Source of the DNA: Escherichia phage Lw1
Strand: one strand, 5' to 3'
Length of the DNA stretch: 64,000 bases
Sequence record: KC801932
Every line of letters starts with the position of its first letter. The first letter of the stretch is position 1. The position numbers and the translations under genes are program-made. Below the pieces are notes generated by a model, which saw only the letters and a list, made by a program, of their open reading frames with translations, had not been told where the DNA came from and did not search any database. Below are positions 1 to 49,607 of this stretch, piece after piece.

Positions 1-909
1 TTAGTAATGACTGAACCCTGCGGTTACATCAGTCATCACCTGATAACGGCATACACGCATTTTGGCGTTGTCGTAGTCTACAGGGATTGCCACCACGTCG
101 CGAGGATTTACCTTAACCTGAATCACTCGCCCACGTCCACCACCATAGTGAGGGAGATACGATTTTGCGGCAACATGCAGACCGCATGAACAGGTTTTGT
201 GTTTGTCTTCGTCTACCTGGTTGCGAGGCATTTTGACGATAGCGCCAGGGCTGTTATCGAACTTGCCTGTTGCCATATCCTTATAGTCTTCGCTAACGCG
301 TTTCCATGCGTAGAAATCACCGTCATCAGCTAATTCGATATCGTTATGCACCAGGAAGCCATAAAGCTGATACACAGCATCACGGGACGGGTTTTGCATC
401 AACTTTTCGAAGAAGTTGACCAGATGTTCGTATGGGCGTTCGTTGTACATTTCACGAACAATACGCTGCGTGATCCCGCTGTCAAACACGACATCTTTAT
501 ACATGACTTGGTGACCGATGATCTTGATATTACCTTTGCTGAACACCTTCAACGCCTGTTTGGTATTCAACAGCGCGGCTACACCTTCAATATCACCTTT
601 AGTCAGAAGAACATGCGCCTTTTCAAAGTTCGGATGGTTTGAATCAGCGGTGATAATCTCACCGTTTCGCACCAGAGTAATGAATGATTCAGAACCAATC
701 ATCTTAGAACCCGTATCCGTTTTCGGTAGCGGTTTCTGTTCTTCGTGTGCATATTTCGCGTGTTGTTCGGTAATAACGCGCCCGATTGTTCGGACGCTTA
801 CACCAAATTGTTTAGCCAGTGCGGTTTTGTTTGCGCTGGTTAGAAAGCCCTCATAGACTGCTTTCTTTTGTACATCATCGAGGATCTTAACAGTTCTCAT
901 TATTTCCAC
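1..909 (-). CDS. rIIB: rIIB protein
   Basis: 302-aa ORF directly downstream of rIIA on the same strand; C-terminal motifs (FYAWK, KMPR, GLHV..KSY, PRDVV.IP.DY.DAKMR) match T4 rIIB as recalled; stop at 1-3. Confidence 0.85.
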   Translation of the reverse strand: MEIMRTVKILDDVQKKAVYEGFLTSANKTALAKQFGVSVRTIGRVITEQHAKYAHEEQKPLPKTDTGSKMIGSESFITLVRNGEIITADSNHPNFEKAHVLLTKGDIEGVAALLNTKQALKVFSKGNIKIIGHQVMYKDVVFDSGITQRIVREMYNERPYEHLVNFFEKLMQNPSRDAVYQLYGFLVHNDIELADDGDFYAWKRVSEDYKDMATGKFDNSPGAIVKMPRNQVDEDKHKTCSCGLHVAAKSYLPHYGGGRGRVIQVKVNPRDVVAIPVDYDNAKMRVCRYQVMTDVTAGFSHY

Positions 910-3149
910 CGTATTAATTTTACCATATCATCAGTCATCGCTTTATCTCCCAGAATATACCGGATTTGATAGCCATCACTGTTTCTCAGGATTCGAGCAA
1001 TTAACGGATTGCGTTTAGCGAAAATCTCATATTGTTCGTCAACGCGTTCAATCATTGCATGTTCCATTTCTTCATGTCGGGCCTGTGCCACACGAATAGA
1101 CGGGTTCTTTGCTTCTGTCGTTTCACCGTCTTCTGTAGTCTGCATCAACACGTTACCATCAAGCGTGTTCAGAATGTTATAACGACGCGAATCATAACGG
1201 TTTTTAACCATGCGATCAAGGCTAATACCCAAATTTTCGTATAGTTCTTTAACGGAACCACGATACTTTTTCGAAACAAAAGCCGGATACCAGTTAGGTT
1301 TCATTTCTTTTGCAGTCTTGCAGAACAATTCAGCAAGGAACGTATCAAGACAAATCATGCTGCTGTCTGGGATCTTATTCCATAACGAATTACGGAGTGT
1401 ATACACCACACGAACACCAGAGATTTCCATCACAGTAGCCAGGTTATTCATGATGCTTGACATCGAGAAGTTATTCGACTCACTCAACGAACTGTAATCA
1501 TCAACACCATACAGACGCAATGCGTATGCAGATTCGAGGTTTACAAACTCCGCTTTCGTGAGGAACAAATCTTCTTTGTTCAAATCGCCATTGATCCCGA
1601 CCGTGTAACGGTATGCTGTCGGCGTTTTCGGACGCGGTTCAGAATCTTTATCGATTGTTTCGCGTGTTGCTCTCCAGCGACGGCGGCCCTCAGTATACAC
1701 TTCCAGTTCTTCCGTCATTTCACTGGTTTTCAGATAAACGATTTCAGATTCATCATAGTAACCGTTTTTGATGAAGTTCTGTAAATTATCCTGGTTTCTG
1801 TTCGGATCGTATTCAACAAAGTTCATACGGTCAGTTTTGTGAAGCATACAGTACCCGATAGCATACGCACGTACAGACTTCGCGTTGTTATCGTTCTGTA
1901 ACAGATACAGGTTTCTCTGCTTCCACGGGTGCAGCATACGCGTAATATCCTGGCGGCGCATAGTTTCTGATTTAAACGTTTCCCAACGACGACCGGAACC
2001 TGTGCGCTCAAAGCTGCAATCTTTCCCGTCATACGTGTTCGCCCAGTATCCCCAGATTTGCATATTTGTGATTAGATCTTTACTGTTGAAGTGCATCACC
2101 AGATCCGAAAGCGTAATATTACCAACTCTGAATTTCTTATCGCGGGTAACGAATGATTGCAGCATAGTAGGAAGATTCTGATACCAGATCACCTTTTCAC
2201 GCGTCGTTTTCAGTTTCGCAAAGTCTTCCGTCAGTTCAGAATAGTAACATTCGTTAATACCTTTCAGACGATCCAGAATAGCTTGCTTGGTGATTTTATC
2301 CAGACTCAGTTCTTCACGGGACGGCATGAAGTCCAGAGTACCCAGGGGGAAATCCAGAATGTAAGCATAATCGCTGTTCTGATAGCAATAGAACAGTGAA
2401 TCCCTGAACATATCCAAATCGATCGGATAGCAGATATTACCCATACGAGCGAACAGGCCAGAATAATGTTTTGACTTATAACGGATGATCCCGCGATTAT
2501 TTGCTTCTGTCGGTTGCCAGTTGATATCCAGTTGAACACCAATAAAGCGAGGACGAATAGTTGTAAACGCTTCGTAAACACGAGCGGCTTCACGTTCCCA
2601 TTCTGGGATATCTTCGACGTTAACCGGAACTGTTACCTGAACGCCGTTAGGTTCATCAGTTTCTACAGCATACAGCGGGTCAATGTACGGTTCGCCGTCT
2701 TCATTGAGGTAAGCAGTATAACCGCGCTTCATGCCGTCCTGAATTGATTCTACGGTGAATGTTGAGGTGTAGCAGAACGGTGATTTGCTACCCAGCCCCA
2801 ACGCCCCGATCAGGTCGTCGGTGTCGGTTTTGGTTGATTCGAAATAAACGGTGAATACTTCGTTCACCATGTAATCACTCAGGCCAGTACCGTAATCACG
2901 AACGATGAAACGAGGATCGAGAACAGTCGGTAACTGAACGTCAAAGCGATCCATGTTACCCGCTACGATATGGCCATCAATCGCGTTACAAGAAATCTCA
3001 CGAATGATTGCGCGGATCTTGTATTTGTAGATTGTGGATGAAAGGATTTTGAACGCTTTCTTACCTGCTCTCATTCCAAAAGCTCTACGGCTTCCAGACT
3101 CGATACCTACACGATGAACTGTGCTTGCTTGGCTTTCGCGTAACTTCAT
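900..3149 (-). CDS. rIIA: rIIA protein (HATPase-like N-terminal region)
   Basis: 749 aa, T4 rIIA-sized; N-terminal NAIDGH-type ATPase motif; rIIA-rIIB adjacency. Confidence 0.85.
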   Translation of the reverse strand: MKLRESQASTVHRVGIESGSRRAFGMRAGKKAFKILSSTIYKYKIRAIIREISCNAIDGHIVAGNMDRFDVQLPTVLDPRFIVRDYGTGLSDYMVNEVFTVYFESTKTDTDDLIGALGLGSKSPFCYTSTFTVESIQDGMKRGYTAYLNEDGEPYIDPLYAVETDEPNGVQVTVPVNVEDIPEWEREAARVYEAFTTIRPRFIGVQLDINWQPTEANNRGIIRYKSKHYSGLFARMGNICYPIDLDMFRDSLFYCYQNSDYAYILDFPLGTLDFMPSREELSLDKITKQAILDRLKGINECYYSELTEDFAKLKTTREKVIWYQNLPTMLQSFVTRDKKFRVGNITLSDLVMHFNSKDLITNMQIWGYWANTYDGKDCSFERTGSGRRWETFKSETMRRQDITRMLHPWKQRNLYLLQNDNNAKSVRAYAIGYCMLHKTDRMNFVEYDPNRNQDNLQNFIKNGYYDESEIVYLKTSEMTEELEVYTEGRRRWRATRETIDKDSEPRPKTPTAYRYTVGINGDLNKEDLFLTKAEFVNLESAYALRLYGVDDYSSLSESNNFSMSSIMNNLATVMEISGVRVVYTLRNSLWNKIPDSSMICLDTFLAELFCKTAKEMKPNWYPAFVSKKYRGSVKELYENLGISLDRMVKNRYDSRRYNILNTLDGNVLMQTTEDGETTEAKNPSIRVAQARHEEMEHAMIERVDEQYEIFAKRNPLIARILRNSDGYQIRYILGDKAMTDDMVKLIRWK

Positions 3150-3159
3150 TGTTTATATC

Positions 3160-3393
3160 TCACTTGTTGAAAATAATGTTTTCGCATGAATACTTTGTCG
3201 GTTTCTTGTCGATACCGTATTCAAGCGGTGTACACATACGATCCATATAATCGTAAATTTCTTGTTTGCGTTTTTCGTCCTTTTTCATTTCAAGGATACC
3301 AAAAACGATAGCAGTCACAAAACACATAGCGATAGTTGAAAGAATAACGATAGCTACGTATTTTGATGTGTTTGGTGCGCTGCATGGTCTCAT
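3160..3393 (-). CDS. small membrane protein (rIIA.1 position)
   Basis: 77 aa with one hydrophobic helix; ATG overlaps upstream stop as ATGA. Confidence 0.5.
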   Translation of the reverse strand: MRPCSAPNTSKYVAIVILSTIAMCFVTAIVFGILEMKKDEKRKQEIYDYMDRMCTPLEYGIDKKPTKYSCENIIFNK

Positions 3394-3656
3394 TGTAACA
3401 CCTTCGCAAATTCCTGTGAAGTCAGTTTACGGGCAACTAAACGCCCTTTTGTTGATGCTTTATGGCCTACCATATACATCGTGGAAATGTTGCGTTTTCC
3501 TGATTGGATTTCATTATACATCTTTTCCGGCATGGTTGATTGATAAACTTCACCGTTTGATGTTTTCAGGAACATAGCATAAACATGGTCATCTTTCTTT
3601 TCGATGATTTCTTTTTCACGAACACGAACCTTAGACGATGTTGGTTTAGCACCCAA
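3390..3656 (-). CDS. hypothetical protein; in-frame continuation of the SprT-like ORF after a TGA
   Basis: 88 codons in the same frame as 3675..3932, separated by TGA plus 6 codons; track start is TTG. Confidence 0.35.
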   Translation of the reverse strand: MGAKPTSSKVRVREKEIIEKKDDHVYAMFLKTSNGEVYQSTMPEKMYNEIQSGKRNISTMYMVGHKASTKGRLVARKLTSQEFAKVLQ

Positions 3657-3674
3657 TTCAATAGCCTTTCTTTG

Positions 3675-3932
3675 TCATACAGGTCCGTGTCCAGCACCAT
3701 AACCAACAAGGGCATGTGCGATTTCGTGCATAAGAGTATCCAAAATGCAATCGTAGGTATCTTCTTCAACATGTTTCCGGCGTAACTGGATCTCTCTTTT
3801 GGAGTAACTGCAACAACCCAGAGTAGTTTTCAAACGTCCGTTAATTTTGAATGACCAATCAGACAAACCATGTTTAGCCATGATGCTTTTGGCCCAAAGA
3901 ATAATTTCCATGTCGCTACGAGTTTTGAACAT
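3675..3932 (-). CDS. SprT-like zinc metallopeptidase domain protein (N-terminal part)
   Basis: DTLMHEIAHALVGYGAGHG contains HExxH plus a downstream His; ends at TGA with the frame open beyond. Confidence 0.55.
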   Translation of the reverse strand: MFKTRSDMEIILWAKSIMAKHGLSDWSFKINGRLKTTLGCCSYSKREIQLRRKHVEEDTYDCILDTLMHEIAHALVGYGAGHGPV

Positions 3933-3959
3933 TTTACATCCTCCTGTGTTTACGGGAGT

Positions 3960-3993
3960 AATATAACAAAAAAGCCCCTGCTATGCAAGGGCT
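3960..3993 (-). promoter_or_regulatory. terminator hairpin with embedded promoter (-35 TTGCAT, 17 bp, -10 TATATT)
   Basis: minus-sense AAGCCCTTGCATAGCAGGGGCTTTTTTGTTATATT between gene 52 stop and the SprT-like ORF. Confidence 0.45.
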
Positions 3994-4002
3994 TGATGTA
4001 AA

Positions 4003-5292
4003 CTATTTCAATTTCTTCGAAAGTTCTTTCAAGTCATTGAGATATTCAATTTTCGGGGTTGTTGTTTCCCAGTATTTCAGTTGCTTACGCAGTTCGTTCG
4101 CTTCGTCTTCCAGCTTTTGACGTTCGTCCGTGGTTAGATGATAGATGTTCATCGCAACCAGAATTTCGGCGTGGTTCTCACAACCAGTCCACGTAGAGAC
4201 AAGTTTAACCGCTTCGCTGCGACTAAGCCCCTTCAACGCGTCAGGCTGTGCGATCATCTGGTCGATGAAGTCAACCTTCGCTAATGCCTTAGCCAGCGCT
4301 TCTTTAGCTTCCTGAATACGTTTTTCAATGCGCTGCTGGTAAACCGTCATACGGATATCAACGAAGTCTTTCAGCAACGTTTCAGGACGTTCATACGAAT
4401 GCAGTTTTCCGTTGAAGATAACGTTGATGTTCGGGTTTGAGTTCTCAATCAATCCGAAATCTTTCAGGATCTTCTCATGGGTAAGCCCGTTGGCATATTC
4501 GCGTTTAAGGGTTATCTCATAGCGGAAATCTTCTTTCGATAGATCCTTGTAGCTTACGATATAACCTTTCTCTTCCAGTTTATCCAGAATGGAGATATAT
4601 TTCACGCGGTCATACTTGACCGGAATCTCAGTAATCACCAGTTTGGTTTTGCCCTGGAGTTCGAATTTACCGTACATCGTACCGTCTTTAATATCGCCTT
4701 TAAAGTGCGGATATTTCAGATCTAACGCGAAATCTTTCCCATTCAGGTAACTAATACACCCATTCAGAACCGATACCGGATCATGTGGTGGAATGTTGGT
4801 AGCGTATGCTTTCGCGATCCCGCTGAACCCGTTAACCAATACCATCGGAATGATAGGCAGATAATAGGCAGGCGGTACGTGTTCAGGGTCTTCATGCGGA
4901 AGAGTTAAATCTTCGTCCATGTAGATAGCCTTGAACAGCGGAGACAGCTTACATTTGATGTAACGCGGTGCGCCTGGCTTCTTAACCAGACGGGAACCAA
5001 AGAACCCATCACGTTCGAAAAGCGGGATGTTGTTGCACCAGTGCGCCGCCATGAGAGACAACGCTTCTTCAACGGATGTTTCCCCGTGGTGATAACCATA
5101 CATAGCAACACCGCCAGCGATAGAGGCTACTTTCTGGAAGCCTGTACCGCCTTTTGCAGCGGAATGTATGAAGAAACGGTGAACGGGTTTGAACCCGTCT
5201 ACCAGGTGCGGGATCGCACGAGAATAAATTGTGTAAAGGGCAAACGTAAGCCCTTCAACCTGCACAACGTCTTTAATACTTCGTTCCATCAA
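4003..5292 (-). CDS. 52: DNA topoisomerase II medium subunit (GyrA-like)
   Basis: 429 aa; FKPVHRF, SIAGG, GYHHGE, FGSR, HVPPAYYLPIIP motifs as in T4 gp52. Confidence 0.9.
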   Translation of the reverse strand: MMERSIKDVVQVEGLTFALYTIYSRAIPHLVDGFKPVHRFFIHSAAKGGTGFQKVASIAGGVAMYGYHHGETSVEEALSLMAAHWCNNIPLFERDGFFGSRLVKKPGAPRYIKCKLSPLFKAIYMDEDLTLPHEDPEHVPPAYYLPIIPMVLVNGFSGIAKAYATNIPPHDPVSVLNGCISYLNGKDFALDLKYPHFKGDIKDGTMYGKFELQGKTKLVITEIPVKYDRVKYISILDKLEEKGYIVSYKDLSKEDFRYEITLKREYANGLTHEKILKDFGLIENSNPNINVIFNGKLHSYERPETLLKDFVDIRMTVYQQRIEKRIQEAKEALAKALAKVDFIDQMIAQPDALKGLSRSEAVKLVSTWTGCENHAEILVAMNIYHLTTDERQKLEDEANELRKQLKYWETTTPKIEYLNDLKELSKKLK

Positions 5293-7190
5293 TCAACCCT
5301 TGAAAATTTATGTTTTCCGTTTACCCAGTCTTTACGCGGATCGGAATCATCACCGAAACACAGTTCCAGAACGTCTTTGTATTCGTCGCCCAGTACGATT
5401 GTATCGTATTTCAACTGGTCGCCCAACACCCGATCGTAATCTTCTTTACGCAAAGAACCCAGCCCTTTGATGTATCGTACCTCTTTCGCTTTATCACGGA
5501 AAGGCGTGAAATCGTCCAGAGAGTAGAACCATTTTTCTTCACGTCCGACTTTCGCAATGATAATCGGTGTGCGAATATACCGGATCTTTTTCTTCGCGAA
5601 CAACTCAGGCCAACGGCTAAAGAATGCAATTAACAGGGTGAGAATATCGCCCCCGTCAACGTCAGCATCCACCATGATCCCGATGTTGTCGTAAGTCATT
5701 TCGGACGAGTCGCCTGGATGGAGATTCAGGATCGCCATTAACTCGAATAATTCTTTGTTTTTGAGAATGTCGGAAATGCTCATTCCCCAGGTGTTCAACG
5801 GTTTGCCACGTAGCGGAAACGCGCCTTGTGTCTCTTCGTTTCTGCACTCGATAAACTGCCCCACAGCGGAATCACCTTCCGTCAGAAACAAAGTGGTTTC
5901 GACTCCATCGGTATCAATTCCTGATGCTGGAACATGTTTTGCAACCTTCGCCTTTTTCGCTTTCTTTTTCGCTTTCGTAATGGCTGCTGCTTCTGCTGCC
6001 TGTTTGCGAATCAAAGCGGACTCGATGATCGGAGTGATTATTTCAGAAGTATCCATAATCTGTTTCGCGATCTTCTTGTAGTTCAGTCCGGCGTGGTTGT
6101 TGAACTCCCCAGCAGTGTTTGTCAGTTTTTCTTTCGTCTGACTATCAAAAGCTGGTGCATTGAAGTTATGCAAAAACACGACCAAAGTCAAACATTCTTT
6201 TACACGGGCTTTCGGGATCTCGATAGCGTGTTTCTTCTTGATCATCGGTTCCAGTTCGGCATAGATACCATCGATCATGCAATCGACGTGTACACCACCG
6301 TTTTTTGTGTCAAGACCGTTGACAAATGATTTCTGTTTGAACCCGTCTTCTGTGCTTGCCAGGATGAAACTGATTTTGTTGTTTGTCTGAACAATCGTTT
6401 TCTCTCCGTACATCGCACCATACATCGCGAATTTATTCGGGAGAACTTCATTGTTGTACGTAAATTTAACCGAAGGGAATGCCACTGCAAGCGCCATAAG
6501 GCGATCTTTGATGACTTCCTTTGTTTCTTCATCGATACCATCCACACCGAAGATAGAGAAATCAGGGGTAAACTTAACAGTGGTTCCCTGTTCTTTCGTC
6601 GGGCTGGTTCGGTAATCCATGTTCTGTGCGCCGTCAGTACAGTTGATAGTTACTTTGCGCTTACCGTTGGATGTCTCACCGATAAAGATTGAACTGTAAC
6701 AGTTCGTCAGGAAAGAACCTACACCGTTCATCCCCATTGTTACGCGGTTTTCATCATCGAAGTTCGAACCTGATTTTGCCATAGTCCATGCTGCAACAGG
6801 TTTAGGGACGATTTTACCTTCCGGCGTTCTTACGTCATCTTGGGGGATGCCTCGCCCGTTGTCGGAGATTGTCACCAAATTATGATCAATCTTCACTTCG
6901 ATTTTGTTCGCGAATTTAAAATCTGTGCGGATCGCTTCGTCAATAGAGTTATCGAGGATTTCGTTGATGATTTTCACCAGACCTTCGACATATTCCACTT
7001 TGCGGAACTTACCCTGAATGAAGCGTTCGTGTGCTTCTCGGTTCACTGAACCCACATACATGTTAGGACGTTTGCGAATGTGATCGCGATCACTTAGGCA
7101 GAATGATTCATCGACTTCCACGCCTTTTGGCGTTTCCGGTACTTTCTGCGGTTCTTCTTCGTCCATTAAGAAATCTAAACTCATATTCAC
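5289..7190 (-). CDS. 39: DNA topoisomerase II large subunit (GyrB-like, gene 39 fused with gene-60 portion)
   Basis: 633 aa; N-terminus parallels T4 gp39 (MY.GS, HERF, NS.DE.IRT.FKFANKI, DNGRGIPQ); longer than T4 gp39 alone, so uninterrupted 39/60. Confidence 0.9.
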   Translation of the reverse strand: MNMSLDFLMDEEEPQKVPETPKGVEVDESFCLSDRDHIRKRPNMYVGSVNREAHERFIQGKFRKVEYVEGLVKIINEILDNSIDEAIRTDFKFANKIEVKIDHNLVTISDNGRGIPQDDVRTPEGKIVPKPVAAWTMAKSGSNFDDENRVTMGMNGVGSFLTNCYSSIFIGETSNGKRKVTINCTDGAQNMDYRTSPTKEQGTTVKFTPDFSIFGVDGIDEETKEVIKDRLMALAVAFPSVKFTYNNEVLPNKFAMYGAMYGEKTIVQTNNKISFILASTEDGFKQKSFVNGLDTKNGGVHVDCMIDGIYAELEPMIKKKHAIEIPKARVKECLTLVVFLHNFNAPAFDSQTKEKLTNTAGEFNNHAGLNYKKIAKQIMDTSEIITPIIESALIRKQAAEAAAITKAKKKAKKAKVAKHVPASGIDTDGVETTLFLTEGDSAVGQFIECRNEETQGAFPLRGKPLNTWGMSISDILKNKELFELMAILNLHPGDSSEMTYDNIGIMVDADVDGGDILTLLIAFFSRWPELFAKKKIRYIRTPIIIAKVGREEKWFYSLDDFTPFRDKAKEVRYIKGLGSLRKEDYDRVLGDQLKYDTIVLGDEYKDVLELCFGDDSDPRKDWVNGKHKFSRVD

Positions 7191-15273: not shown

Positions 15274-15591
15274 TTAAATTAGGTTGTTGTTCCAGTTTTT
15301 ATACATGCTGCGATTATTGATCGCATCTTCGATATTTTCTTTGAATACAGCTACAAATTGTGCCTTTGTGATATCAAGAGGTAAATAATCGGCGGTTGTA
15401 TCGCAGTACGGCCCATATGCATAACAATCACTGGATCGCTCAACAAAGAAATATTCATTCATAAATTCGCTGATCTTTGGATTATCCTTAACGAATGCGC
15501 CGAACCCACACCATGCGCCCTCACCCTCATTAAGTCCTTTCAGGTAGTTGAATAATCCAACACTATCAATTTTATATTTTGCTTTAGCCAT
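15274..15591 (-). CDS. hypothetical protein
   Basis: 105 aa. Confidence 0.5.
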   Translation of the reverse strand: MAKAKYKIDSVGLFNYLKGLNEGEGAWCGFGAFVKDNPKISEFMNEYFFVERSSDCYAYGPYCDTTADYLPLDITKAQFVAVFKENIEDAINNRSMYKNWNNNLI

Positions 15592-17347: not shown

Positions 17348-18133
17348 TTACTCTATTGTGAAAGTGAAAAGGTTTTGCGCGGGTTTGGTTTCCGGTTCGG
17401 GGAATTCCATGCAGACAATTTCACACAACGGCTTCACGCCTTTCCAGTCCTCCAGATAGTATCCGGTATCAATGCCGCAACCAGGTTGCATTTCAAGGCC
17501 AGTTTCATCGAGAAACTTTTTACATTTTGATGACGTTGTTGATTCATCTTTCCTAAAATAACGTTCACCGGAGTATCGGAAGTTAGCGGACATTTGCGGG
17601 AGGATGAACGTACCCATACGGGCAATCTGTGAAGCACGTTCGATCACCTTATATTCAAATTCCGCGCCTGTATACTTACCCTTAAAATCGGATGTCTTTA
17701 TCTTCCCGAAAGGTGGATTACTGATCGCCATATCAAACAGAGTATCAAACTCAGTCGTTAATGCGTCTGCATTAATCCAGGTCGCTTCCGGTACGATACG
17801 CTTACCCAACTTATAGTATGTATGGTTTAACTCAACACAGACGATTTCACGCGGTTTTGCGTACATCATCATATGAATCATCGCAAAGGATAAACCACCA
17901 ATACCAGCGCAAAGGTCAACAACACTTCCGCTTGTGCAAGCATCGATCGTGAAATCGCGAGCAAGCCCAATCGGGGTAAAGAATGCCCCTAACTCAGAAT
18001 TATTCGTAAAAGCACCTTCATGGAAGTTCTCAATAATGAATAACTTCTCTTCATAGGTTAGTGCTTTGTCAGACTCCACCAGATCCATTATCTGATTGTG
18101 TTTCTTCGTTTCCGCTTTTGTTAACTTCGCCAT
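17348..18133 (-). CDS. putative N6-adenine-type DNA methyltransferase
   Basis: 261 aa; GAFFTP, SAM-binding VDLCAGIGG, catalytic NPPF; motif order suits a gamma-class amino-methyltransferase. Confidence 0.65.
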   Translation of the reverse strand: MAKLTKAETKKHNQIMDLVESDKALTYEEKLFIIENFHEGAFTNNSELGAFFTPIGLARDFTIDACTSGSVVDLCAGIGGLSFAMIHMMMYAKPREIVCVELNHTYYKLGKRIVPEATWINADALTTEFDTLFDMAISNPPFGKIKTSDFKGKYTGAEFEYKVIERASQIARMGTFILPQMSANFRYSGERYFRKDESTTSSKCKKFLDETGLEMQPGCGIDTGYYLEDWKGVKPLCEIVCMEFPEPETKPAQNLFTFTIE

Positions 18134-18473
18134 TGTCCCAACTATACAATAATGTTGATTCGTTTGGATAGAATTCCCACCCGTCTACATATCCGGTTTC
18201 CCAGTCAGTAGTTTGGTCAAAACCACAGATCCATTCATACACACCTGGCGGCATTTCAACGGAATCAGGTAGCCCGATATCTTCCGCACTGCGTCCACAT
18301 TCAAAGAATGAATCATGTATGTTTGGTCGAGATAATACAGTAACATAACCTTCGTCGTCAATAGCCACAATCCATTTCGAACTGTGAGGACTATCGAAAA
18401 CTGGTCCTTCATCAGGAATTGCTTGCATTTCCACGTTTCCCAAGTCAAAATTTCCCCAGTCAATATTATTCAT
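18069..18473 (-). CDS. hypothetical protein
   Basis: 134 aa; 3' end overlaps the methyltransferase start by about 65 nt. Confidence 0.5.
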   Translation of the reverse strand: MNNIDWGNFDLGNVEMQAIPDEGPVFDSPHSSKWIVAIDDEGYVTVLSRPNIHDSFFECGRSAEDIGLPDSVEMPPGVYEWICGFDQTTDWETGYVDGWEFYPNESTLLYSWDNGEVNKSGNEETQSDNGSGGV

Positions 18474-28156: not shown

Positions 28157-28441
28157 TTAGGCAAAAGTGCCGTTAATCAGAGTTTCTACCACGGAAGCCG
28201 CAGCGTTTTCGAGCAATTCTTTATTCTTTGATTCAGTGACTTTAATTCCCGCTTCGCGAGCGTCCAGAATCAATCCGCTATGTACAGCGCTTACTGCTTC
28301 ATCGATTCGTTTATAATGATCGAATCGTTCAGATTGAGGCATCGCACGAAACATCAATTTAATATTGTCGGGGGTTTTATTTACCCATGATTTGCGGACA
28401 GTATTCAGGTGCGCAACATATACATTTTGTTCTAAATTCAT
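28157..28441 (-). CDS. hypothetical protein (rpbA position)
   Basis: 94 aa immediately upstream of gene 45; positional only. Confidence 0.45.
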   Translation of the reverse strand: MNLEQNVYVAHLNTVRKSWVNKTPDNIKLMFRAMPQSERFDHYKRIDEAVSAVHSGLILDAREAGIKVTESKNKELLENAAASVVETLINGTFA

Positions 28442-33013: not shown

Positions 33014-34033
33014 ATGAATTATGTGTTAATTGGCGATACACATGCAGGACTTCGCCAGGATAACCCCTGGAACGAAGATAACCTGTATGAAGTATTCAAA
33101 CAGATAGTAGCGTATTGCAAAGAACATGGGATCACTCGCGGTTTCCATGCGGGTGATTTCTTTGATGTTCGAAAAGCAACCACACAGACAACGATGAATT
33201 TCGTTCGTGAAAAGCTGGTTCCTCTTCTGACTGAGGCTGGGATCGTTATCGATACTTTGGTTGGCAACCACGATTGCCAATTTAAAGACAAAATCCGGCC
33301 CAACGCGCCGCGCGAGATACTCAGTCAGTATGAATGCTTTAATGTCATCGACGAACCGACCACAGTCGATTTAGGCGGTGGAAAATCGATTGACCTGATC
33401 CCGTGGATTTGTCAGGAAAACAGTCATAGGATTTTCGAGTTTATCAAACAGTCAAAATCAAATTTCTGTCTGGGACACTTCGAACTTTCTGGTTACTATT
33501 TCTACAAAAACAGTAAAGCGGATCACGGGCTTGAACCGGACTTCTTGAAAAAGTATGAACGCGTTTACTCTGGACACTATCACCATGCAAACGAAGGTGA
33601 TAACGTGTTTTACATCGGTACACCGCTTACTATGAGCGCCAACGATGAAGACGAAACACGCGGGTTTTATGTGTTCACTGGTAAACCTGAACTCACTTTC
33701 ATTGCAAACCCAGTGTGCCACCATCGCCGGATTATGTACCCGTCACAGAAAGATGTTGATCTGGAAGAGTACCGCAATTGTTCTGTGCGTCTGATCGTGA
33801 GTGAAGTTGACAACGGCCTTGCGAAGTTCCAGACGAAGATCGAAGAAATCGCATACGAAATCAGCATCATAGATAAAATTCAGACTGATGCAACCGTAGA
33901 TACTGACTTTGAGATCAAAACCGTCCGTGGGCTAATCAGCGAATATGTTGCTAATATGCAAATAAGCGACGACGAAAAAGAAGATGTTAACAAGCTGATA
34001 AGTGAACTTTACGCGGAGGTGTCAAGTGCATAA
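33014..34033 (+). CDS. 47: recombination endonuclease subunit (Mre11-like)
   Basis: 339 aa (same as T4 gp47); phosphoesterase motifs GDTHAG, GDFFD, GNHD, GHxH. Confidence 0.9.
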   Translation: MNYVLIGDTHAGLRQDNPWNEDNLYEVFKQIVAYCKEHGITRGFHAGDFFDVRKATTQTTMNFVREKLVPLLTEAGIVIDTLVGNHDCQFKDKIRPNAPREILSQYECFNVIDEPTTVDLGGGKSIDLIPWICQENSHRIFEFIKQSKSNFCLGHFELSGYYFYKNSKADHGLEPDFLKKYERVYSGHYHHANEGDNVFYIGTPLTMSANDEDETRGFYVFTGKPELTFIANPVCHHRRIMYPSQKDVDLEEYRNCSVRLIVSEVDNGLAKFQTKIEEIAYEISIIDKIQTDATVDTDFEIKTVRGLISEYVANMQISDDEKEDVNKLISELYAEVSSA

Positions 34034-34085
34034 ACGATATGAAAAATATTTTGGGGAAACCCCATTGTATTTGCCACTGCTTACG

Positions 34086-34301
34086 ATGTTCGGTATTGAC
34101 CATATTGTAAGCGAAAGCGATGATAGTGTATGTTTGACGTTCGTTAAAGGGAACTGGCATTCTTCAAGAACGTTTTCTATCCTGATGCTTGATGCGTTAG
34201 ACGATGATACATTGTCATATGCTCTTGAGGTCGAACTCGTTAATATGGTTGCAGAACTTAGTGAAGGTATTTTAAGTGAAACTAAACTTCAAAAAAATTA
34301 A
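34086..34301 (+). CDS. hypothetical small protein
   Basis: 72 aa from first ATG of track ORF 34002..34301; overlaps gene 46 start; weak. Confidence 0.25.
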   Translation: MFGIDHIVSESDDSVCLTFVKGNWHSSRTFSILMLDALDDDTLSYALEVELVNMVAELSEGILSETKLQKN

Positions 34302-35967
34302 GTATCAGAATATTCTGTCGGTAGGGAATACCCCGATCGAACTTGAATTCGATACTGCAAAGAAAACCCTGATCACGGGTAAAAATGGTGGTGGTAAATC
34401 CACACTGATCGAAGCGTTGACGTATGCTCTTTTTGGTAAGTCATTTCGTGATTTAAAAGTCGGGCAACTGGTAAACAGTGTCAACAAAAAGAAATGTCTG
34501 GTTGAACTGGATATTGAATACGGGAAAGATTCGTACAAAGTCGTTCGCGGACAAAAGCCGAAAGTATTCGAGATCTGGAAAAACGGTGATAAGTTAGCAG
34601 AAGATTCAGCAGCGGGTGATTATCAATCTCAGCTTGAATCCATGCTCAATATTAACCTGGTTGGATTCAAACAGGTAATCGTTTTGGGTACTGCTGGCTA
34701 TACTCCATTCATGGAACTGAAAACACCGGATCGCCGTAAACTGGTTGAAGACCTGTTGTCGCTATCGGTTATCAGTGAAATGGATAAGCTGAACAAATCA
34801 TATGTCCGTGGTGTTAATCAGCAGTTGGATACCCTGTCAATGCAGGTTAACCACATCCAGCAGCAGATCGCTACACACCAGCGCTTCATTGATGAACAGC
34901 GAGCTAAAGCGAACCAGAACAACGCACGATACAAAGAGATCTACGATAGCCACGTTGAAACCGCTAAGAATATCAAAGCACAGCTTATGCAGTTGCAAGC
35001 GGAGATCGCAGAAACGGTGATCACTGGCGCAGACCGAACGGAAGATATAAACAAACTCCGTGATGGATATACGCGCCTCTCTATGACTGTAGAACAGTTT
35101 AAAAAGCTGGAAGTGATGTATCAGAAAGGTGGTGAGTGTCCGGCCTGTAAACAGGCGATTACGCCCACTCCTGAACGCATGGAAGAGATCGCAAACAACA
35201 TCAAAGCGGGTACGCAACGATTAACGCTGATCAAAACCAAACAGGACGAGTTGCAAGGCATTATGAACGAGTTGCTTCAACAGCAACGCGCACTGAATGC
35301 TATGAAAACGAAATACGAAGCCCTGAAAGGTACGCTGCAAAATGAAGTTGCCAACGCTAAACGCGCACAAGCGATCATGGAACAGGCAAGCGCGGAAGTT
35401 GTTATTGATGAAGAACCTGTTAAGCAGTTGCAACAACAGGAAGCAGATCTGAACGATAAACGTCAAGGATATGTGAAAGAAAAATATATCCGTGGTATCG
35501 TTACAGATATGTTAAAAGATTCGGGTGTAAAAGCCAGCATCGTAAAACGTTATATCCCGTACTTCAACAAGCAGATCGCATACTATCTGGATCTGTTGGG
35601 CGCTGACTACCAGTTCACGTTAGATGATGAATTCAACGAATCAATCAAATCACTGGGGCGCGATGATTTTAGTTACGCATCATTTAGCCAGGGTGAACGC
35701 GCACGAATCAACTTATCGATTCTGTTTACATGGCGCGACGTAACAAGCAAAGTTTCCGGCGTGGACCTGTCTCTTCTGATTATGGACGAAGTTTTCGATA
35801 ACGCTCTTGATAAAGAAGGTGCGTTTGCTGTAGGGGCTGTTCTGAATGGTATTGATGGTAATATCATGGTGATTAGCCACAACGATTTAGACCCTGGTGA
35901 TTTCGATCGTCATATCGTCATGGCTAAATTGGGGCGCTTCTCGAAGATGGAAATCAAGAAGTCTTAA
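34276..35967 (+). CDS. 46: recombination endonuclease subunit (Rad50/SbcC-like ATPase)
   Basis: 563 aa; GTG start; Walker A GKNGGGKS, central coiled coil with CPAC zinc hook, C-terminal signature/Walker B. Confidence 0.9.
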   Translation: MKLNFKKIKYQNILSVGNTPIELEFDTAKKTLITGKNGGGKSTLIEALTYALFGKSFRDLKVGQLVNSVNKKKCLVELDIEYGKDSYKVVRGQKPKVFEIWKNGDKLAEDSAAGDYQSQLESMLNINLVGFKQVIVLGTAGYTPFMELKTPDRRKLVEDLLSLSVISEMDKLNKSYVRGVNQQLDTLSMQVNHIQQQIATHQRFIDEQRAKANQNNARYKEIYDSHVETAKNIKAQLMQLQAEIAETVITGADRTEDINKLRDGYTRLSMTVEQFKKLEVMYQKGGECPACKQAITPTPERMEEIANNIKAGTQRLTLIKTKQDELQGIMNELLQQQRALNAMKTKYEALKGTLQNEVANAKRAQAIMEQASAEVVIDEEPVKQLQQQEADLNDKRQGYVKEKYIRGIVTDMLKDSGVKASIVKRYIPYFNKQIAYYLDLLGADYQFTLDDEFNESIKSLGRDDFSYASFSQGERARINLSILFTWRDVTSKVSGVDLSLLIMDEVFDNALDKEGAFAVGAVLNGIDGNIMVISHNDLDPGDFDRHIVMAKLGRFSKMEIKKS

Positions 35968-36664
35968 ACTTACAGTTGTCAAAATGCCATCGTTTCATAT
36001 TGGTGGCATCACCAACTTTAGCGCAATGGGGGCAAGTTAATTGCTCCCTTTTCTTTTGTATTTTTCTGTCTGGGTTCTTGGTACAATATGGAATATGACT
36101 GTTCAAGTAATGCACTGTCGATTCTGTACCACAATGAGGACAAGAACCGCGCTCCGATACTACGTTTCTGTTTTTATGTGCTCGCATGACTCCTGCAAAT
36201 GCATTCACTTTCCCTTCATTGCCTGGCTTGTTCTTGCAGTTGTCGAAGTGCCAGCGGTTCATATTACCTACTAAGCCGGACGTATTGCAATGAGGACACG
36301 TAACCCTGTTCTGTTGAAGTTTGGCCTGTCTCATGCGTAAGCGTGTCTCTTCGCTGAACTCTTTTTGTTTCTGGGCTTCAAGTGCTTTTTCTTTTAACCA
36401 TCCATAGCGGCGGTTTGCTGTACGCGCAGACGATCGAGAAGTGCCGACTGTAAGCATGTTAGCAGCATAAATTAGTTTATGGTTGCCTGGATACATCTTA
36501 ACCAATAGCAGATGTGCTATGAAATGTTGACGTGCTGACAGTTCAACCAGATTTTCGGGATCGTCCGATCCTCCCATACATTTTGGAACGATGTGGTGTT
36601 TCTCTTTGTACTCTGCATCCGTTCCGGCAGTCATGAGTTGTTCGTAAATCTTATGATAATTCAT
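35954..36664 (-). CDS. HNH homing-endonuclease-like protein with three C-terminal zinc-finger repeats
   Basis: 236 aa; HNH core HHIVPKCMGGSDDPENLVELSARQHFIAH; three copies of CPHC-x12-14-(R/K)WHFDNCK; opposite strand to flanking genes. Confidence 0.8.
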   Translation of the reverse strand: MNYHKIYEQLMTAGTDAEYKEKHHIVPKCMGGSDDPENLVELSARQHFIAHLLLVKMYPGNHKLIYAANMLTVGTSRSSARTANRRYGWLKEKALEAQKQKEFSEETRLRMRQAKLQQNRVTCPHCNTSGLVGNMNRWHFDNCKNKPGNEGKVNAFAGVMRAHKNRNVVSERGSCPHCGTESTVHYLNSHIPYCTKNPDRKIQKKREQLTCPHCAKVGDATNMKRWHFDNCKFKTS

Positions 36665-39344: not shown

Positions 39345-39546
39345 ATGGAGTCCGTTAGACGTGATGATCTTTGATATCGAATCACGGATCATTAATGCTC
39401 GTATGAACGGATTAGGAATCTTTTCTGTTGAATTCGAAAAGATTCGCGGTTATAATGCTGACTGTAAAAACAAGTTGCGCGTCATGGTGGAAGCAATGGG
39501 CTACATCGTGGATATTGAAGACAATAAAATGTGGATCGGATTATGA
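39289..39546 (+). CDS. hypothetical protein
   Basis: about 85 aa; start uncertain; overlaps neighbours. Confidence 0.4.
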   Translation: MKLPKHTTLLTREKLHSVEWSPLDVMIFDIESRIINARMNGLGIFSVEFEKIRGYNADCKNKLRVMVEAMGYIVDIEDNKMWIGL

Positions 39547-40124
39547 GCAAAGTAAAAGCAGTTTTCGCAGTCGGTAATGACGCATACGAAGAAGATTTTG
39601 CGTTTGGCTACCAGCAGGGTTTACCGTGGGGGCATTGCAAAGAAGATTTGCAGAAATTCAAAGCAGAAACTGCAAATAGCGTCCTGATCATGGGTGCGAA
39701 CACTTTTACTTCTCTGCCTGGTAAATTGTCAGGGCGAGTACATTGCGTTATGTCTGCATCCGGTCAACGTCTGGTAACGAAGAACGGAAATACCGCTGAT
39801 TACATCATCCACTGTGGCGGGTTGTCTGCTGCAATCGACGTGATGAAAGCAACGCATCCAGATAGTGATGTGTGTATCATTGGTGGTAAGGGGTTGCTTC
39901 TGGAAGCAATCAATAATACACTGGTTGATGAATTAGTCATAACTCACGTTTATGGACATCGTGTGTATAATGCACCAGCGTTTAAACGTGATGTCTCGTT
40001 TAGCGTCAAAGAATTCTATGATGCAGTCTTGAAGTATGGATATTGTGATTTTGAAACTATCCATATTCACGACAACGAACGCGTTGCAAAACTTGTGATC
40101 GACCGACATACGAAAAAGGCATGA
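39543..40124 (+). CDS. frd: dihydrofolate reductase
   Basis: 193 aa from ATG (MSKVKAVFAVG); LPW motif and Gly-rich NADPH region; upstream of td as in T4. Confidence 0.85.
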   Translation: MSKVKAVFAVGNDAYEEDFAFGYQQGLPWGHCKEDLQKFKAETANSVLIMGANTFTSLPGKLSGRVHCVMSASGQRLVTKNGNTADYIIHCGGLSAAIDVMKATHPDSDVCIIGGKGLLLEAINNTLVDELVITHVYGHRVYNAPAFKRDVSFSVKEFYDAVLKYGYCDFETIHIHDNERVAKLVIDRHTKKA

Positions 40125-44494: not shown

Positions 44495-44777
44495 TTGTCG
44501 CGTCGTAAACAAGTATAAAGGTAACTGGGATGTCGATATTCAAAGAGGTACGAAGTTCGGCAATCCCTTTTACAAGGGAACACGGGGTGAAAACATTCTT
44601 AACTTCATCCCGTATTTCCAAAACTTGATTCGAACTGGCGTGATCACAATCGACGAACTGAAAGAACTGGACGGGAAGCGGTTAGGCTGTAGTTGCAAAC
44701 CCTTACCGTGTCACGGTGATTATATTGCTCACTGCGTCAATGTGTTGACCGGAAAGGTGAATAAGTTGGATATATAA
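44466..44777 (+). CDS. DUF4326-like small protein (GNPF and CSCKPLPCHGD motifs)
   Basis: about 103 aa from first in-frame ATG of track ORF; start overlaps nrdB 3' end; family assignment from memory. Confidence 0.5.
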   Translation: MQNGDKNTLDCRVVNKYKGNWDVDIQRGTKFGNPFYKGTRGENILNFIPYFQNLIRTGVITIDELKELDGKRLGCSCKPLPCHGDYIAHCVNVLTGKVNKLDI

Positions 44778-45175
44778 TGGACGATGTAACGTTTGGTGTA
44801 ATATTTCCTTTGCGTCTGGGTTCAGACAAAAGGATAGATCGGAGTTTTGTTAAATGTGGTGAATTCCGGCATTGTGTATATTTTATTGAAATCGACGGTC
44901 GGATAGTGTATGTTGGCAAGTGTCGTGATTTGTGGAAGCGGTTAGACACATACCGCAATTCGAAATACTGGCGGGAAGCAAACCCCAGTAACATTTTGAA
45001 AACCGCACGTCTGGAAATGGCAATCAAAAAAGGTAAACGTGTAAATCTTATCGTGACAACACACGACGAAAGCACGTATCACGATTTTGAAATCAACATG
45101 ATCCGAAAAATTAATCCTGAATGGAACAAACAGCACTATGACAAATCTAACCAAAAATCAGAAAACCCTCTTTGA
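44777..45175 (+). CDS. denA: endonuclease II (GIY-YIG)
   Basis: 132 aa (T4 DenA 136); GIY-YIG-like VYFIEIDGRIVYVGK; follows nrdB as in T4. Confidence 0.6.
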   Translation: MDDVTFGVIFPLRLGSDKRIDRSFVKCGEFRHCVYFIEIDGRIVYVGKCRDLWKRLDTYRNSKYWREANPSNILKTARLEMAIKKGKRVNLIVTTHDESTYHDFEINMIRKINPEWNKQHYDKSNQKSENPL

Positions 45176-49529: not shown

Positions 49530-49607
49530 GGCCCCTTAGCTCAATTGGTTAGAGCGAACCCCTCATAAGGGTGTGGTTTCCGGTTCAAGTCACGGAAGGG
49601 GCCACCA
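49530..49607 (+). tRNA. tRNA with CAU anticodon (Met or lysidine-dependent Ile)
   Basis: hand-folded: 7-bp acceptor stem GGCCCCT/AGGGGCC, D-arm GCTC..GAGC, anticodon loop CUCAUAA, T-loop TTCAAGT, encoded CCA; one A-G mismatch in anticodon stem and one G-A in T-stem. Confidence 0.6.

What the first reader, a model, noticed from the sequence alone, without database searches (positions are those of the whole stretch)
3390..3932. SprT-like metallopeptidase ORF interrupted by a single in-frame TGA
3675..3932 encodes an HExxH-containing SprT-like segment ending at TGA. The same frame stays open for 6 codons and then 88 more codons (3390..3656) with no ATG start; the track uses TTG. That gives a 181-codon frame broken by one stop. 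It may be a programmed readthrough or recoding site, a recent pseudogene, a two-part gene, or a sequencing error. In T4 the equivalent neighbourhood, between rIIA and the topoisomerase genes, holds gene 60 with its translational bypass.
Basis: partly seen in the sequence, partly recalled or inferred. Interest (0 to 1): 0.55.

Follow-up and report, generated by a model that had tools for sequence, protein, structure and literature searches.

The report
Nonsense-mutated SprT-like protease gene
In phage Lw1 a single G-to-A change has turned an invariant tryptophan codon of a SprT-like zinc protease gene into a stop codon, so this is an ordinary, isolate-specific broken gene (or a one-base sequence error), not programmed recoding.

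Summary
On the minus strand, 3932..3390 is one 180-codon SprT-like gene with a single internal TGA at 3677..3675 (codon 86). The window is Escherichia phage Lw1 (Pseudotevenvirus, RB16/RB43 group). GenBank annotates the two pieces as gp004 (85 aa) and gp003 (88 aa, TTG start).

All 21 relatives inspected (11 isolates, 10 metagenome contigs) have one uninterrupted 179-180-aa gene with TGG (Trp) at that codon. In the 16 closest relatives, aligned base by base, that base is the only one in the gene where Lw1 differs from all of them. Trp86 is invariant in 37 homologues down to 25% identity.

Recoding is not supported:
- TGA is the normal stop of 29 of 72 genes in the window.
- The phage has only a tRNA-Met.
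- No RNA structure follows the stop.
- The alignment is colinear, so nothing is bypassed.
- Gene 60 is fused to gene 39 here and is unrelated.

The region after the stop shows no decay (0 non-synonymous changes), so the change is very recent, or it is a base-call error; reads are not available. No other conserved gene in the first 50 kb is broken. The UGA-C context may allow slight Trp readthrough that restores the wild-type protein. Verdict: ordinary, low interest.

The parts
3390..3932 (-). Whole SprT-like metallopeptidase gene (180 codons in relatives), interrupted in this genome at codon 86
   Evidence: Colinear full-length match to PHROG 6445. tblastn of RB16 p004 covers 1-180 with 0 gaps and 1 stop.
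3675..3677 (-). Premature opal stop TGA at codon 86. All relatives have TGG (Trp). The changed base is 3675: T on the + strand, A on the coding strand.
   Evidence: 21 of 21 relatives have TGG. In the base-by-base comparison with 16 relatives, gene nt 258 is the only position where Lw1 differs from all of them. W86 is invariant in 37 homologues.
3674..3674 (-). +4 base C, giving the tetranucleotide UGA-C, a weak termination context in E. coli
   Evidence: Sequence. Literature summary in PMC5289835.
3675..3932 (-). N-terminal piece, annotated in the Lw1 record as gp004 (85 aa). It holds the HExxH helix and the third His but ends 3 residues after H82.
   Evidence: AGJ71413.1. Pfam SprT-like over residues 20-84 of the fragment.
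3714..3728 (-). HEIAH zinc-binding and catalytic motif (H69, E70, H73)
   Evidence: Invariant columns.
3687..3689 (-). H82, the presumed third zinc ligand (GHG motif), four codons before the stop
   Evidence: Invariant. The role as zinc ligand is inferred from SprT/minigluzincin relatives.
3390..3656 (-). C-terminal piece, annotated in the Lw1 record as a separate gene gp003 (88 aa, TTG start). In relatives it is residues 93-180 of the same protein. The separate gene call is most likely an annotation artefact of the stop.
   Evidence: AGJ71412.1. Its cluster representative is the 180-aa RB16 protein. PHROG 6445 profile positions 93-180. 0 non-synonymous differences from close relatives.
3665..3669 (-). 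Weak Shine-Dalgarno-like AAAGG, 8 nt before the TTG at 3656. It is part of the conserved coding sequence QRKAIEL, so it did not evolve as a start signal, but it could allow a little reinitiation.
   Evidence: Sequence. The same nucleotides are present in RB16 and RB43. Function is inferred only.
3940..3945 (-). Ribosome-binding site AGGAGG of the SprT-like gene
   Evidence: Sequence. The equivalent site is annotated in phage Miller.
3972..3994 (-). Intrinsic-terminator-like hairpin plus T run after gene 52, just upstream of the SprT-like gene
   Evidence: A terminator is annotated at the same place in phage Margaery.
3390..3393 (-). ATGA overlap: the terminal TGA of the SprT-like gene overlaps the ATG of the next gene (77-aa protein, 3393..3160, PHROG 7845)

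Best explanation
The window is phage Lw1. Its SprT-like zinc metallopeptidase gene carries a very recent opal nonsense mutation private to this isolate. This is a G-to-A transition on the coding strand (C-to-T at + strand position 3675) that changes the invariant Trp86 codon TGG to TGA.

Translation by the standard code mostly stops there. The 85-residue product keeps the HExxH helix and the third His. It lacks the helix that starts at Trp86 and the whole C-terminal domain (about residues 95-180), so it is probably inactive. The gene is an accessory gene and the phage is evidently viable without it.

The '88-aa gene' called downstream from a TTG is the orphaned 3' part of the same gene, not an independent gene.

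The stop is UGA followed by C, and the near-cognate tRNA for UGA is tRNA-Trp. A small fraction of ribosomes may therefore read through and make exactly the wild-type protein. That would be incidental leakiness, not an evolved mechanism.

Shown: the substitution, its uniqueness to Lw1, the invariance of the residue, the lack of any recoding apparatus, and the lack of decay. Inferred: that the base is real rather than a base-call error, that the truncated product is inactive, and that some readthrough occurs.
For: Identity of the window: exact matches of both fragments to Lw1 proteins, each on a single contig.

All relatives have one intact gene with TGG at codon 86:
- RB43, RB16, GuL6, SemperBestia, Margaery.
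- RB43-GVA, IME-CF2, Miller and 10 independent metagenome or SRA contigs.
- EC-W2, Taquito, Olmo.

The exact joined protein with Trp exists on at least 10 other contigs. No phage record or IMG/VR contig has the TGA version.

Gene nt 258 is the only position at which Lw1 differs from all 16 aligned relatives. The nearest contigs differ at only 2 of 543 nt.

W86 is one of 13 invariant columns in 37 homologues down to 25% identity. It opens helix 84-92 in a confident model (pLDDT 91.5).

Both halves are under purifying selection in relatives (pN/pS 0-0.32). Downstream of the stop, Lw1 has 0 non-synonymous and 4-10 synonymous differences from the close relatives that differ there, so the lesion is recent.

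Assembly quality: of 76 RB16 genes compared with the window, none of the 71 with a hit has a frameshift and no other has a mid-gene stop. The genome was sequenced by 454/Newbler and the record is a revised second version (PMC3861415). From general knowledge, 454 consensus errors are mainly homopolymer indels, not substitutions.

Leakiness: UGA-C is a weak signal and tRNA-Trp misreads UGA in E. coli (PMC5289835; PMC10570021).
Against: No reads are available, so a single base-call or assembly error cannot be excluded. The total absence of any further change downstream of the stop is what an error would also give.

The nearest wild contig is only 98.6% identical in the flanks. It is a different strain and cannot serve as a resequencing control.

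Only the first 50 kb of RB16 was compared with the window, and only 64 kb of the 176-kb genome was available. The statement 'the only broken gene' therefore holds for that part only.

Inactivity of the 85-aa product and the extent of readthrough are untested. In the B-strain host, RF2 is, from general knowledge, more active than in K-12 (K-12 carries A246T; PMC9025336), so readthrough may be very low.
Confidence: 0.72

Rival explanations
1. Sequencing or assembly error. The phage really has TGG, and the deposited consensus has one wrong base at 3675.
For: The change is a single base, unique to this record. The rest of the gene is perfectly conserved at the protein level with no sign of decay. 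The truncated proteins occur on one contig only, the GenBank record. The genome is a 2013 454/Newbler assembly.
Against: 454 consensus errors are typically homopolymer-length errors that cause frameshifts (general knowledge). None is seen in the 71 RB16-homologous genes found in the window, which argues for a well-covered, clean consensus. A TGG-to-TGA substitution would need an undercall of GG plus a spurious A in the same reads. The record is a second, revised version, and the authors annotated the two pieces separately, so they saw the split.
Confidence: 0.2
2. Programmed stop-codon readthrough or recoding. The UGA would be an evolved, regulated site decoded as Trp, by near-cognate tRNA-Trp or a suppressor, to set the ratio of short to long product. 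Decoding as selenocysteine is a variant of the same idea.
For: UGA-C is the leakiest type of bacterial stop context, and tRNA-Trp is the natural misreader of UGA. Readthrough would restore the invariant Trp exactly.
Against: The stop is not conserved: 21 of 21 relatives have TGG. RNA folding around and downstream of the stop is no better than shuffled sequence (z -0.80). There is no Rfam match. The only tRNA in the window, and according to the genome paper in the whole genome, is tRNA-Met. TGA terminates 29 of 72 genes in the window, including this one. Relatives have Trp, not Cys or Sec, and no SECIS-like hairpin is present.
Confidence: 0.03
3. A functional two-part (split) gene. The 85-aa catalytic piece and an independently initiated 88-aa piece (TTG at 3656, weak AAAGG 8 nt upstream) would be made separately and work together or separately.
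For: The Lw1 record annotates it this way. A weak SD-like sequence and a TTG lie 7 codons after the stop. The C-terminal region forms its own compact domain in the model. Other SprT-like proteins carry different C-terminal modules, so the domains are modular.
Against: No relative has two genes. All have a single ORF, and the putative SD and TTG are simply the conserved codons for QRKAIEL, present unchanged in phages with the intact gene. The split would remove invariant W86 and residues 86-92 of a helix belonging to the protease domain (Pfam match runs to residue 101; model). The change is one base and private to one isolate.
Confidence: 0.03
4. Translational bypass (hop) as in T4 gene 60, or a programmed frameshift, joins the two pieces.
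Against: The two pieces are in the same frame. They align to the intact orthologues with zero gaps, and the stop occupies exactly the Trp codon. So there is no coding gap to hop over and no frame change to make. Gene 60 in this phage is fused to gene 39 in one uninterrupted ORF. The SprT-like gene is not a homologue of gene 60.
Confidence: 0.01

Closest known systems
Intact orthologues in Pseudotevenvirus phages (RB16 p004, RB43 ORF003c, IME-CF2, Miller CPTMiller_004, SemperBestia 'putative SprT domain-containing protein'); PHROG 6445
   Same: Same position between gene 52 (topoisomerase II medium subunit) and a 77-aa protein next to rIIA. Same length. 97-99% amino-acid identity to the closest ones, with identical C-terminal 94 residues in RB16 and RB43.
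   Different: They have TGG at codon 86 and encode one 179-180-aa protein. Lw1 has TGA and is annotated as two genes.
SprT-like / Spartan (SPRTN) / Wss1 zincin proteases (Pfam PF10263; PDB 6mdx, 5xbn) and archaeal minigluzincins (projannalysin 4jix, selecase 4qhf)
   Different: Sequence identity is only 13-21%. The C-terminal domain has no cysteine zinc ribbon and no independent structural match. No biochemical activity or substrate is known for the phage protein. A role in DNA-protein crosslink repair is only an analogy.
Classical leaky opal (UGA) nonsense mutants of T-even phages and natural UGA readthrough by tRNA-Trp in E. coli
   Same: UGA derived from a Trp codon, a weak UGA-C context, and near-cognate tRNA-Trp that would insert the original amino acid.
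   Different: Nothing here has been measured. The host BL21(DE3) has no known suppressor.
T4 gene 60 translational bypass
   Same: Only the rough genomic neighbourhood (rIIA and the topoisomerase genes).
   Different: Different gene. There is no coding gap, no take-off and landing codon pair is needed, and gene 60 is fused to gene 39 without interruption in this phage.

Membership tests
SprT-like metallopeptidase (Pfam PF10263) | Profile match above the curated gathering score | tested here: met
   Joined protein: 50 bits against a cut-off of 25.6, residues 20-101. The 85-aa fragment alone: 42.6 bits.
SprT-like metallopeptidase (Pfam PF10263) | HExxH motif plus a downstream third His, with the conserved Trp four residues later | tested here: met
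   H69, E70, H73 and H82 are present and invariant in 37 homologues. The Trp (W86) is invariant in homologues but is replaced by a stop in this genome.
SprT-like metallopeptidase (Pfam PF10263) | Zincin fold like the Spartan SprT domain, Wss1 and minigluzincins | tested here: met
SprT-like metallopeptidase (Pfam PF10263) | Zinc-dependent (DNA-stimulated) protease activity | not testable with these tools
   No biochemical data for any member of PHROG 6445 were found.
Intact functional member of PHROG 6445 | Uninterrupted reading frame of about 180 codons | tested here: not met
   TGA at codon 86. All 21 relatives inspected are uninterrupted.
Programmed stop-codon readthrough | The stop codon is conserved among orthologues | tested here: not met
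   0 of 21 relatives have a stop; all have TGG. No match with the TGA in the phage collection or IMG/VR.
Programmed stop-codon readthrough | Stimulatory context or downstream RNA structure | tested here: inconclusive
   The weak UGA-C context is present (PMC5289835). The downstream fold is not better than shuffles (z -0.80) and there is no Rfam hit. The C at +4 is simply the first base of the conserved Gln codon.
Suppressor-tRNA or reassigned-code decoding of TGA (code 4-like, or phage suppressor tRNA) | A tRNA reading UGA, and TGA avoided as a terminator | tested here: not met
   The only tRNA found is tRNA-Met. The paper reports 1 tRNA in the whole genome. TGA ends 29 of 72 genes.
Selenocysteine insertion | SECIS hairpin just 3' of the UGA; Cys or Sec in homologues | tested here: not met
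   No significant structure. Homologues have invariant Trp.
T4 gene 60-type translational bypass | Non-coding gap between matched take-off and landing codons inside a gene 60 homologue | tested here: not met
   Colinear gap-free alignment across the stop. The gene is not a gene 60 homologue. Gene 39+60 is one uninterrupted ORF, 5289..7190.
Recent pseudogene / nonsense allele | A disabling change relative to intact orthologues under purifying selection, private to one lineage | tested here: met
   Whether the base is real in the virus rather than in the record only could not be tested.

The most novel reading that the evidence does not exclude
The opal codon is real and was selected in the industrial BL21(DE3) culture from which Lw1 came. 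It would act as a leaky stop that lowers the SprT-like protease to a few per cent of its normal dose. tRNA-Trp readthrough at UGA-C would regenerate the exact wild-type protein. This would be a one-step dosage knock-down of an accessory protease that is harmful in that host.
Probability: 0.04. Interest if true: 0.35.

Novelty: already known. Interest (0 to 1): 0.1.

Why it matters
It matters mainly for annotation. In the Lw1 record, gp003 ('hypothetical protein', 88 aa) and gp004 ('putative SprT zinc metallopeptidase', 85 aa) should be merged and flagged as one disrupted gene. These two fragments are singleton sequences in public protein collections.

It also indicates that this conserved accessory gene is not needed for Lw1 to grow on E. 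coli B. If the stop is real, Lw1 is a ready-made natural knock-out, leaky at most. Comparing it with RB16 or RB43 could help find out what this widespread phage SprT-like protease does: 1,038 phage records carry a relative.

It says nothing new about recoding.

Tried and rejected
- TGA-carrying copies elsewhere. A 91-nt megablast against phages found no 100% match. An exact 36-mer scan of IMG/VR found 0 hits. Exact-protein look-up found the fragments only on the Lw1 record.
- Resequencing control. The closest contigs (L012, L018) are only about 98.6-98.9% identical in the flanks. They are other strains and cannot settle error versus mutation.
- Splits in other relatives. Several records listed three 'hypothetical proteins' under the match. 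The extra one is just an unnamed rIIA or topoisomerase gene.
- denA. A second apparent in-frame stop in denA is only a natural terminus three codons earlier.
- RNA elements. Rfam gave only two sub-threshold chance hits away from the stop. The fold z-score was -0.80.
- Antisense ORFs. 3585..3785 and 3266..3577 on the + strand have no PHROG match and are taken as shadows of the gene.
- Sequence search of the PDB found nothing significant (best E 0.12).
- Methylation hot spot. The mutated C (+ strand) is not in a Dcm CCWGG site (read from the sequence), so 5-methylcytosine deamination does not explain it.
- C-terminal domain. It found no independent structural match, so its function remains open.

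Full report
**What is in the sequence.** The minus strand of 3390..3932 reads as one frame of 180 sense positions with a single internal stop.
- ATG at 3932, preceded by AGGAGG at 3945..3940.
- 85 codons that include HEIAH (3728..3714) and a downstream His (H82, 3689..3687).
- TGA at 3677..3675, followed by C.
- Six codons (QRKAIE), then TTG at 3656.
- 88 more codons to the terminal TGA at 3392..3390. That stop overlaps the ATG of the next gene, a 77-aa protein of PHROG 7845.

**Is the pattern more than chance?** The bare pattern is not diagnostic. Twenty other places in the window have two open stretches of at least 85 codons in one frame separated by one stop, although in shuffled sequence only 0.4% of stop-to-stop intervals reach 94 codons. 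Homology running straight across the stop is what makes this case real.
- Pfam SprT-like (PF10263) covers residues 20-101 of the joined protein (50 bits, cut-off 25.6).
- PHROG 6445 matches positions 1-180 of 180 (E 4.6e-92). The 88-aa piece alone matches profile positions 93-180.

**Where the window comes from.** The region is 95-97% identical to RB43, RB16, IME-CF2, Miller and related Pseudotevenvirus phages. The first 25 kb are 97.7% identical to RB16 and start at the same genome coordinate.

An exact-sequence look-up identifies both fragments as proteins of Escherichia phage Lw1, each found on that one 176,227-bp contig only:
- AGJ71413.1, 'putative SprT zinc metallopeptidase', 85 aa.
- AGJ71412.1, 'hypothetical protein Lw1_gp003', 88 aa.

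The genome paper (PMC3861415) reports that Lw1 was isolated from a lysed E. coli BL21(DE3) culture. It was sequenced by 454 and assembled with Newbler. It has 273 ORFs and a single tRNA (Met), and the described record is a second version.

**The comparison that decides the matter.** Every relative examined has one uninterrupted gene of 179-180 codons at this position, with TGG (Trp) where Lw1 has TGA:
- RB43, RB16, GuL6, SemperBestia, Margaery.
- RB43-GVA, IME-CF2, Miller.
- EC-W2, Taquito, Olmo.
- Ten independent metagenome or SRA-assembly contigs that encode exactly the joined Lw1 protein with Trp at position 86.

In the base-by-base comparison with 16 of these, gene nucleotide 258 (window 3675) is the only position at which Lw1 differs from all of them. 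The closest contigs differ from Lw1 at just 2 of 543 nt. No phage record and no IMG/VR contig carries the TGA version.

In an alignment of 37 homologues reaching 25% identity, W86 is one of 13 invariant columns, together with H69, E70, H73 and H82.

So the stop is a one-base change (G to A on the coding strand) in an invariant Trp codon, and it is private to this record.

**Tests of recoding.**
- TGA is the ordinary terminator of 29 of 72 comparable genes in the window, including this gene's own end. The codon is therefore not reassigned.
- ARAGORN finds only tRNA-Met at 49530..49607, in agreement with the paper. There is no phage suppressor tRNA.
- The 121 nt around and after the stop fold no better than shuffled sequence (z -0.80). 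Rfam finds nothing there. There is therefore no readthrough stimulator or SECIS-like element.
- The alignment to the orthologues has no gap and no frame change. This excludes frameshifting and a gene 60-type hop.
- Gene 60 is fused to gene 39 in this phage group as one uninterrupted ORF (5289..7190, 99.4% identical to RB16 gp39plus60). The T4 analogy is positional only.
- The 'two-part gene' reading is contradicted by the same orthologues. The TTG and the weak AAAGG before it are just the conserved codons for QRKAIEL, and they are unchanged in phages with the intact gene.

**How old is the change, and how good is the assembly?** Both halves of the gene are under purifying selection among relatives (pN/pS 0 to 0.32). 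Downstream of the stop, Lw1 shows no non-synonymous difference and 4-10 synonymous differences from RB43, Miller, IME-CF2 and several contigs. It is identical there to RB16 and the nearest contig. There is no decay, so the stop is either very recent or not real.

I compared 76 annotated RB16 genes (first 50 kb) with the window. Five have no counterpart, and the other 71 are all full length or nearly so, without frameshifts. The only other in-alignment stop (denA) is just a terminus three codons earlier.

A clean, frameshift-free 454 consensus argues against an error-prone assembly. From general knowledge, 454 consensus errors are mostly homopolymer indels rather than substitutions. For these reasons I favour a real mutation over an error, at roughly 3.5 to 1. 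Only reads or resequencing can settle it. The nearest wild contig is another strain (98.6% identical over 8.3 kb) and cannot act as a control.

**What the protein is and what the stop does to it.** The joined protein gives a confident model (mean pLDDT 91.5).
- The N-terminal domain is a helix, a three-stranded sheet and the HExxH helix (60-76). After H82 comes a helix (84-92) that begins at W86.
- A compact C-terminal domain occupies about residues 105-180.

It is therefore a minimal zincin of the SprT/Spartan/Wss1 kind with an accessory domain of unknown function.

The 85-residue product of Lw1 keeps the three presumed zinc ligands. It loses the invariant Trp, the helix it starts, invariant G94 and the whole second domain. 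I infer that it is inactive or unstable; this is not shown.

Consequences are probably small. The gene is an accessory gene and Lw1 grows. The downstream 77-aa gene has its own SD (AAGGTG), though loss of translational coupling could lower its expression; this is an inference.

**Leakiness.** UGA followed by C is documented as a weak bacterial termination signal, and tRNA-Trp is the usual misreader of UGA in E. coli (PMC5289835; PMC10570021). Any readthrough would therefore restore the exact wild-type protein.

This follows trivially from how the stop arose (TGG to TGA, next codon CAA). It is not evidence of design. In B strains readthrough should, from general knowledge, be lower than in K-12, whose RF2 carries A246T (PMC9025336).

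**Verdict.** The feature is an ordinary isolate-specific nonsense allele, or a one-base error, in a known and widespread phage gene family; 1,038 phage records carry a relative and 208 have the full two-domain form. Its practical value is to correct the annotation of Lw1 gp003 and gp004. If the stop is real, it also offers a natural knock-out for studying this uncharacterised protease.

Noticed in passing
window 3390..7190 (also L001-L008, L010-L022): In all Pseudotevenvirus relatives checked, the SprT-like protease gene lies directly downstream of the two topoisomerase II genes (39+60 and 52). Its structural relatives Spartan and Wss1 digest topoisomerase-DNA crosslinks. The idea that the phage protease clears trapped phage topoisomerase II is untested.
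   Followed up: no
window 5289..7190 (-): Gene 39 and gene 60 are fused into one uninterrupted 633-codon ORF (99.4% identical to RB16 gp39plus60). This phage therefore has no gene 60-type bypass element.
   Followed up: yes
window 15274..15591 (-): A 105-aa ORF sits between genes 56 and 61. It has no counterpart in RB16, where those two genes are 8 nt apart. It is a small Lw1-specific insertion of unknown function.
   Followed up: partly
window 35954..36664 (-): A 236-aa HNH-type endonuclease-like ORF lies between genes 46 and 45.2, on the opposite strand to the neighbouring genes. RB16's three homing endonucleases and p066 have no match in the window. This fits the paper's remark that Lw1 lacks AP2-domain endonucleases but has one MobE-type gene.
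   Followed up: partly
window 44777..45175 (+): denA (endonuclease II) is only 79% identical to RB16's and ends three codons earlier. In tblastn this looks like an in-frame stop, but it is a normal terminus.
   Followed up: yes
window 18072..18443, 28160..28441, 34026..34286, 39543..40121: There are patches of much lower identity to RB16 (p030 52%, rpbA 66%, p053 59%, frd 83%) in a backbone that is otherwise 97-100% identical. This indicates mosaic exchange with other phages. The SprT-like gene is itself mosaic: its 5' third is RB43-like and its 3' part is identical to RB16.
   Followed up: partly
L001 (AY967407.1, RB43): The original RB43 record annotates rIIA and rIIB as one fused CDS (1..3150). 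RB16, Lw1 and the others have two genes overlapping by one base. This is probably an annotation quirk.
   Followed up: no
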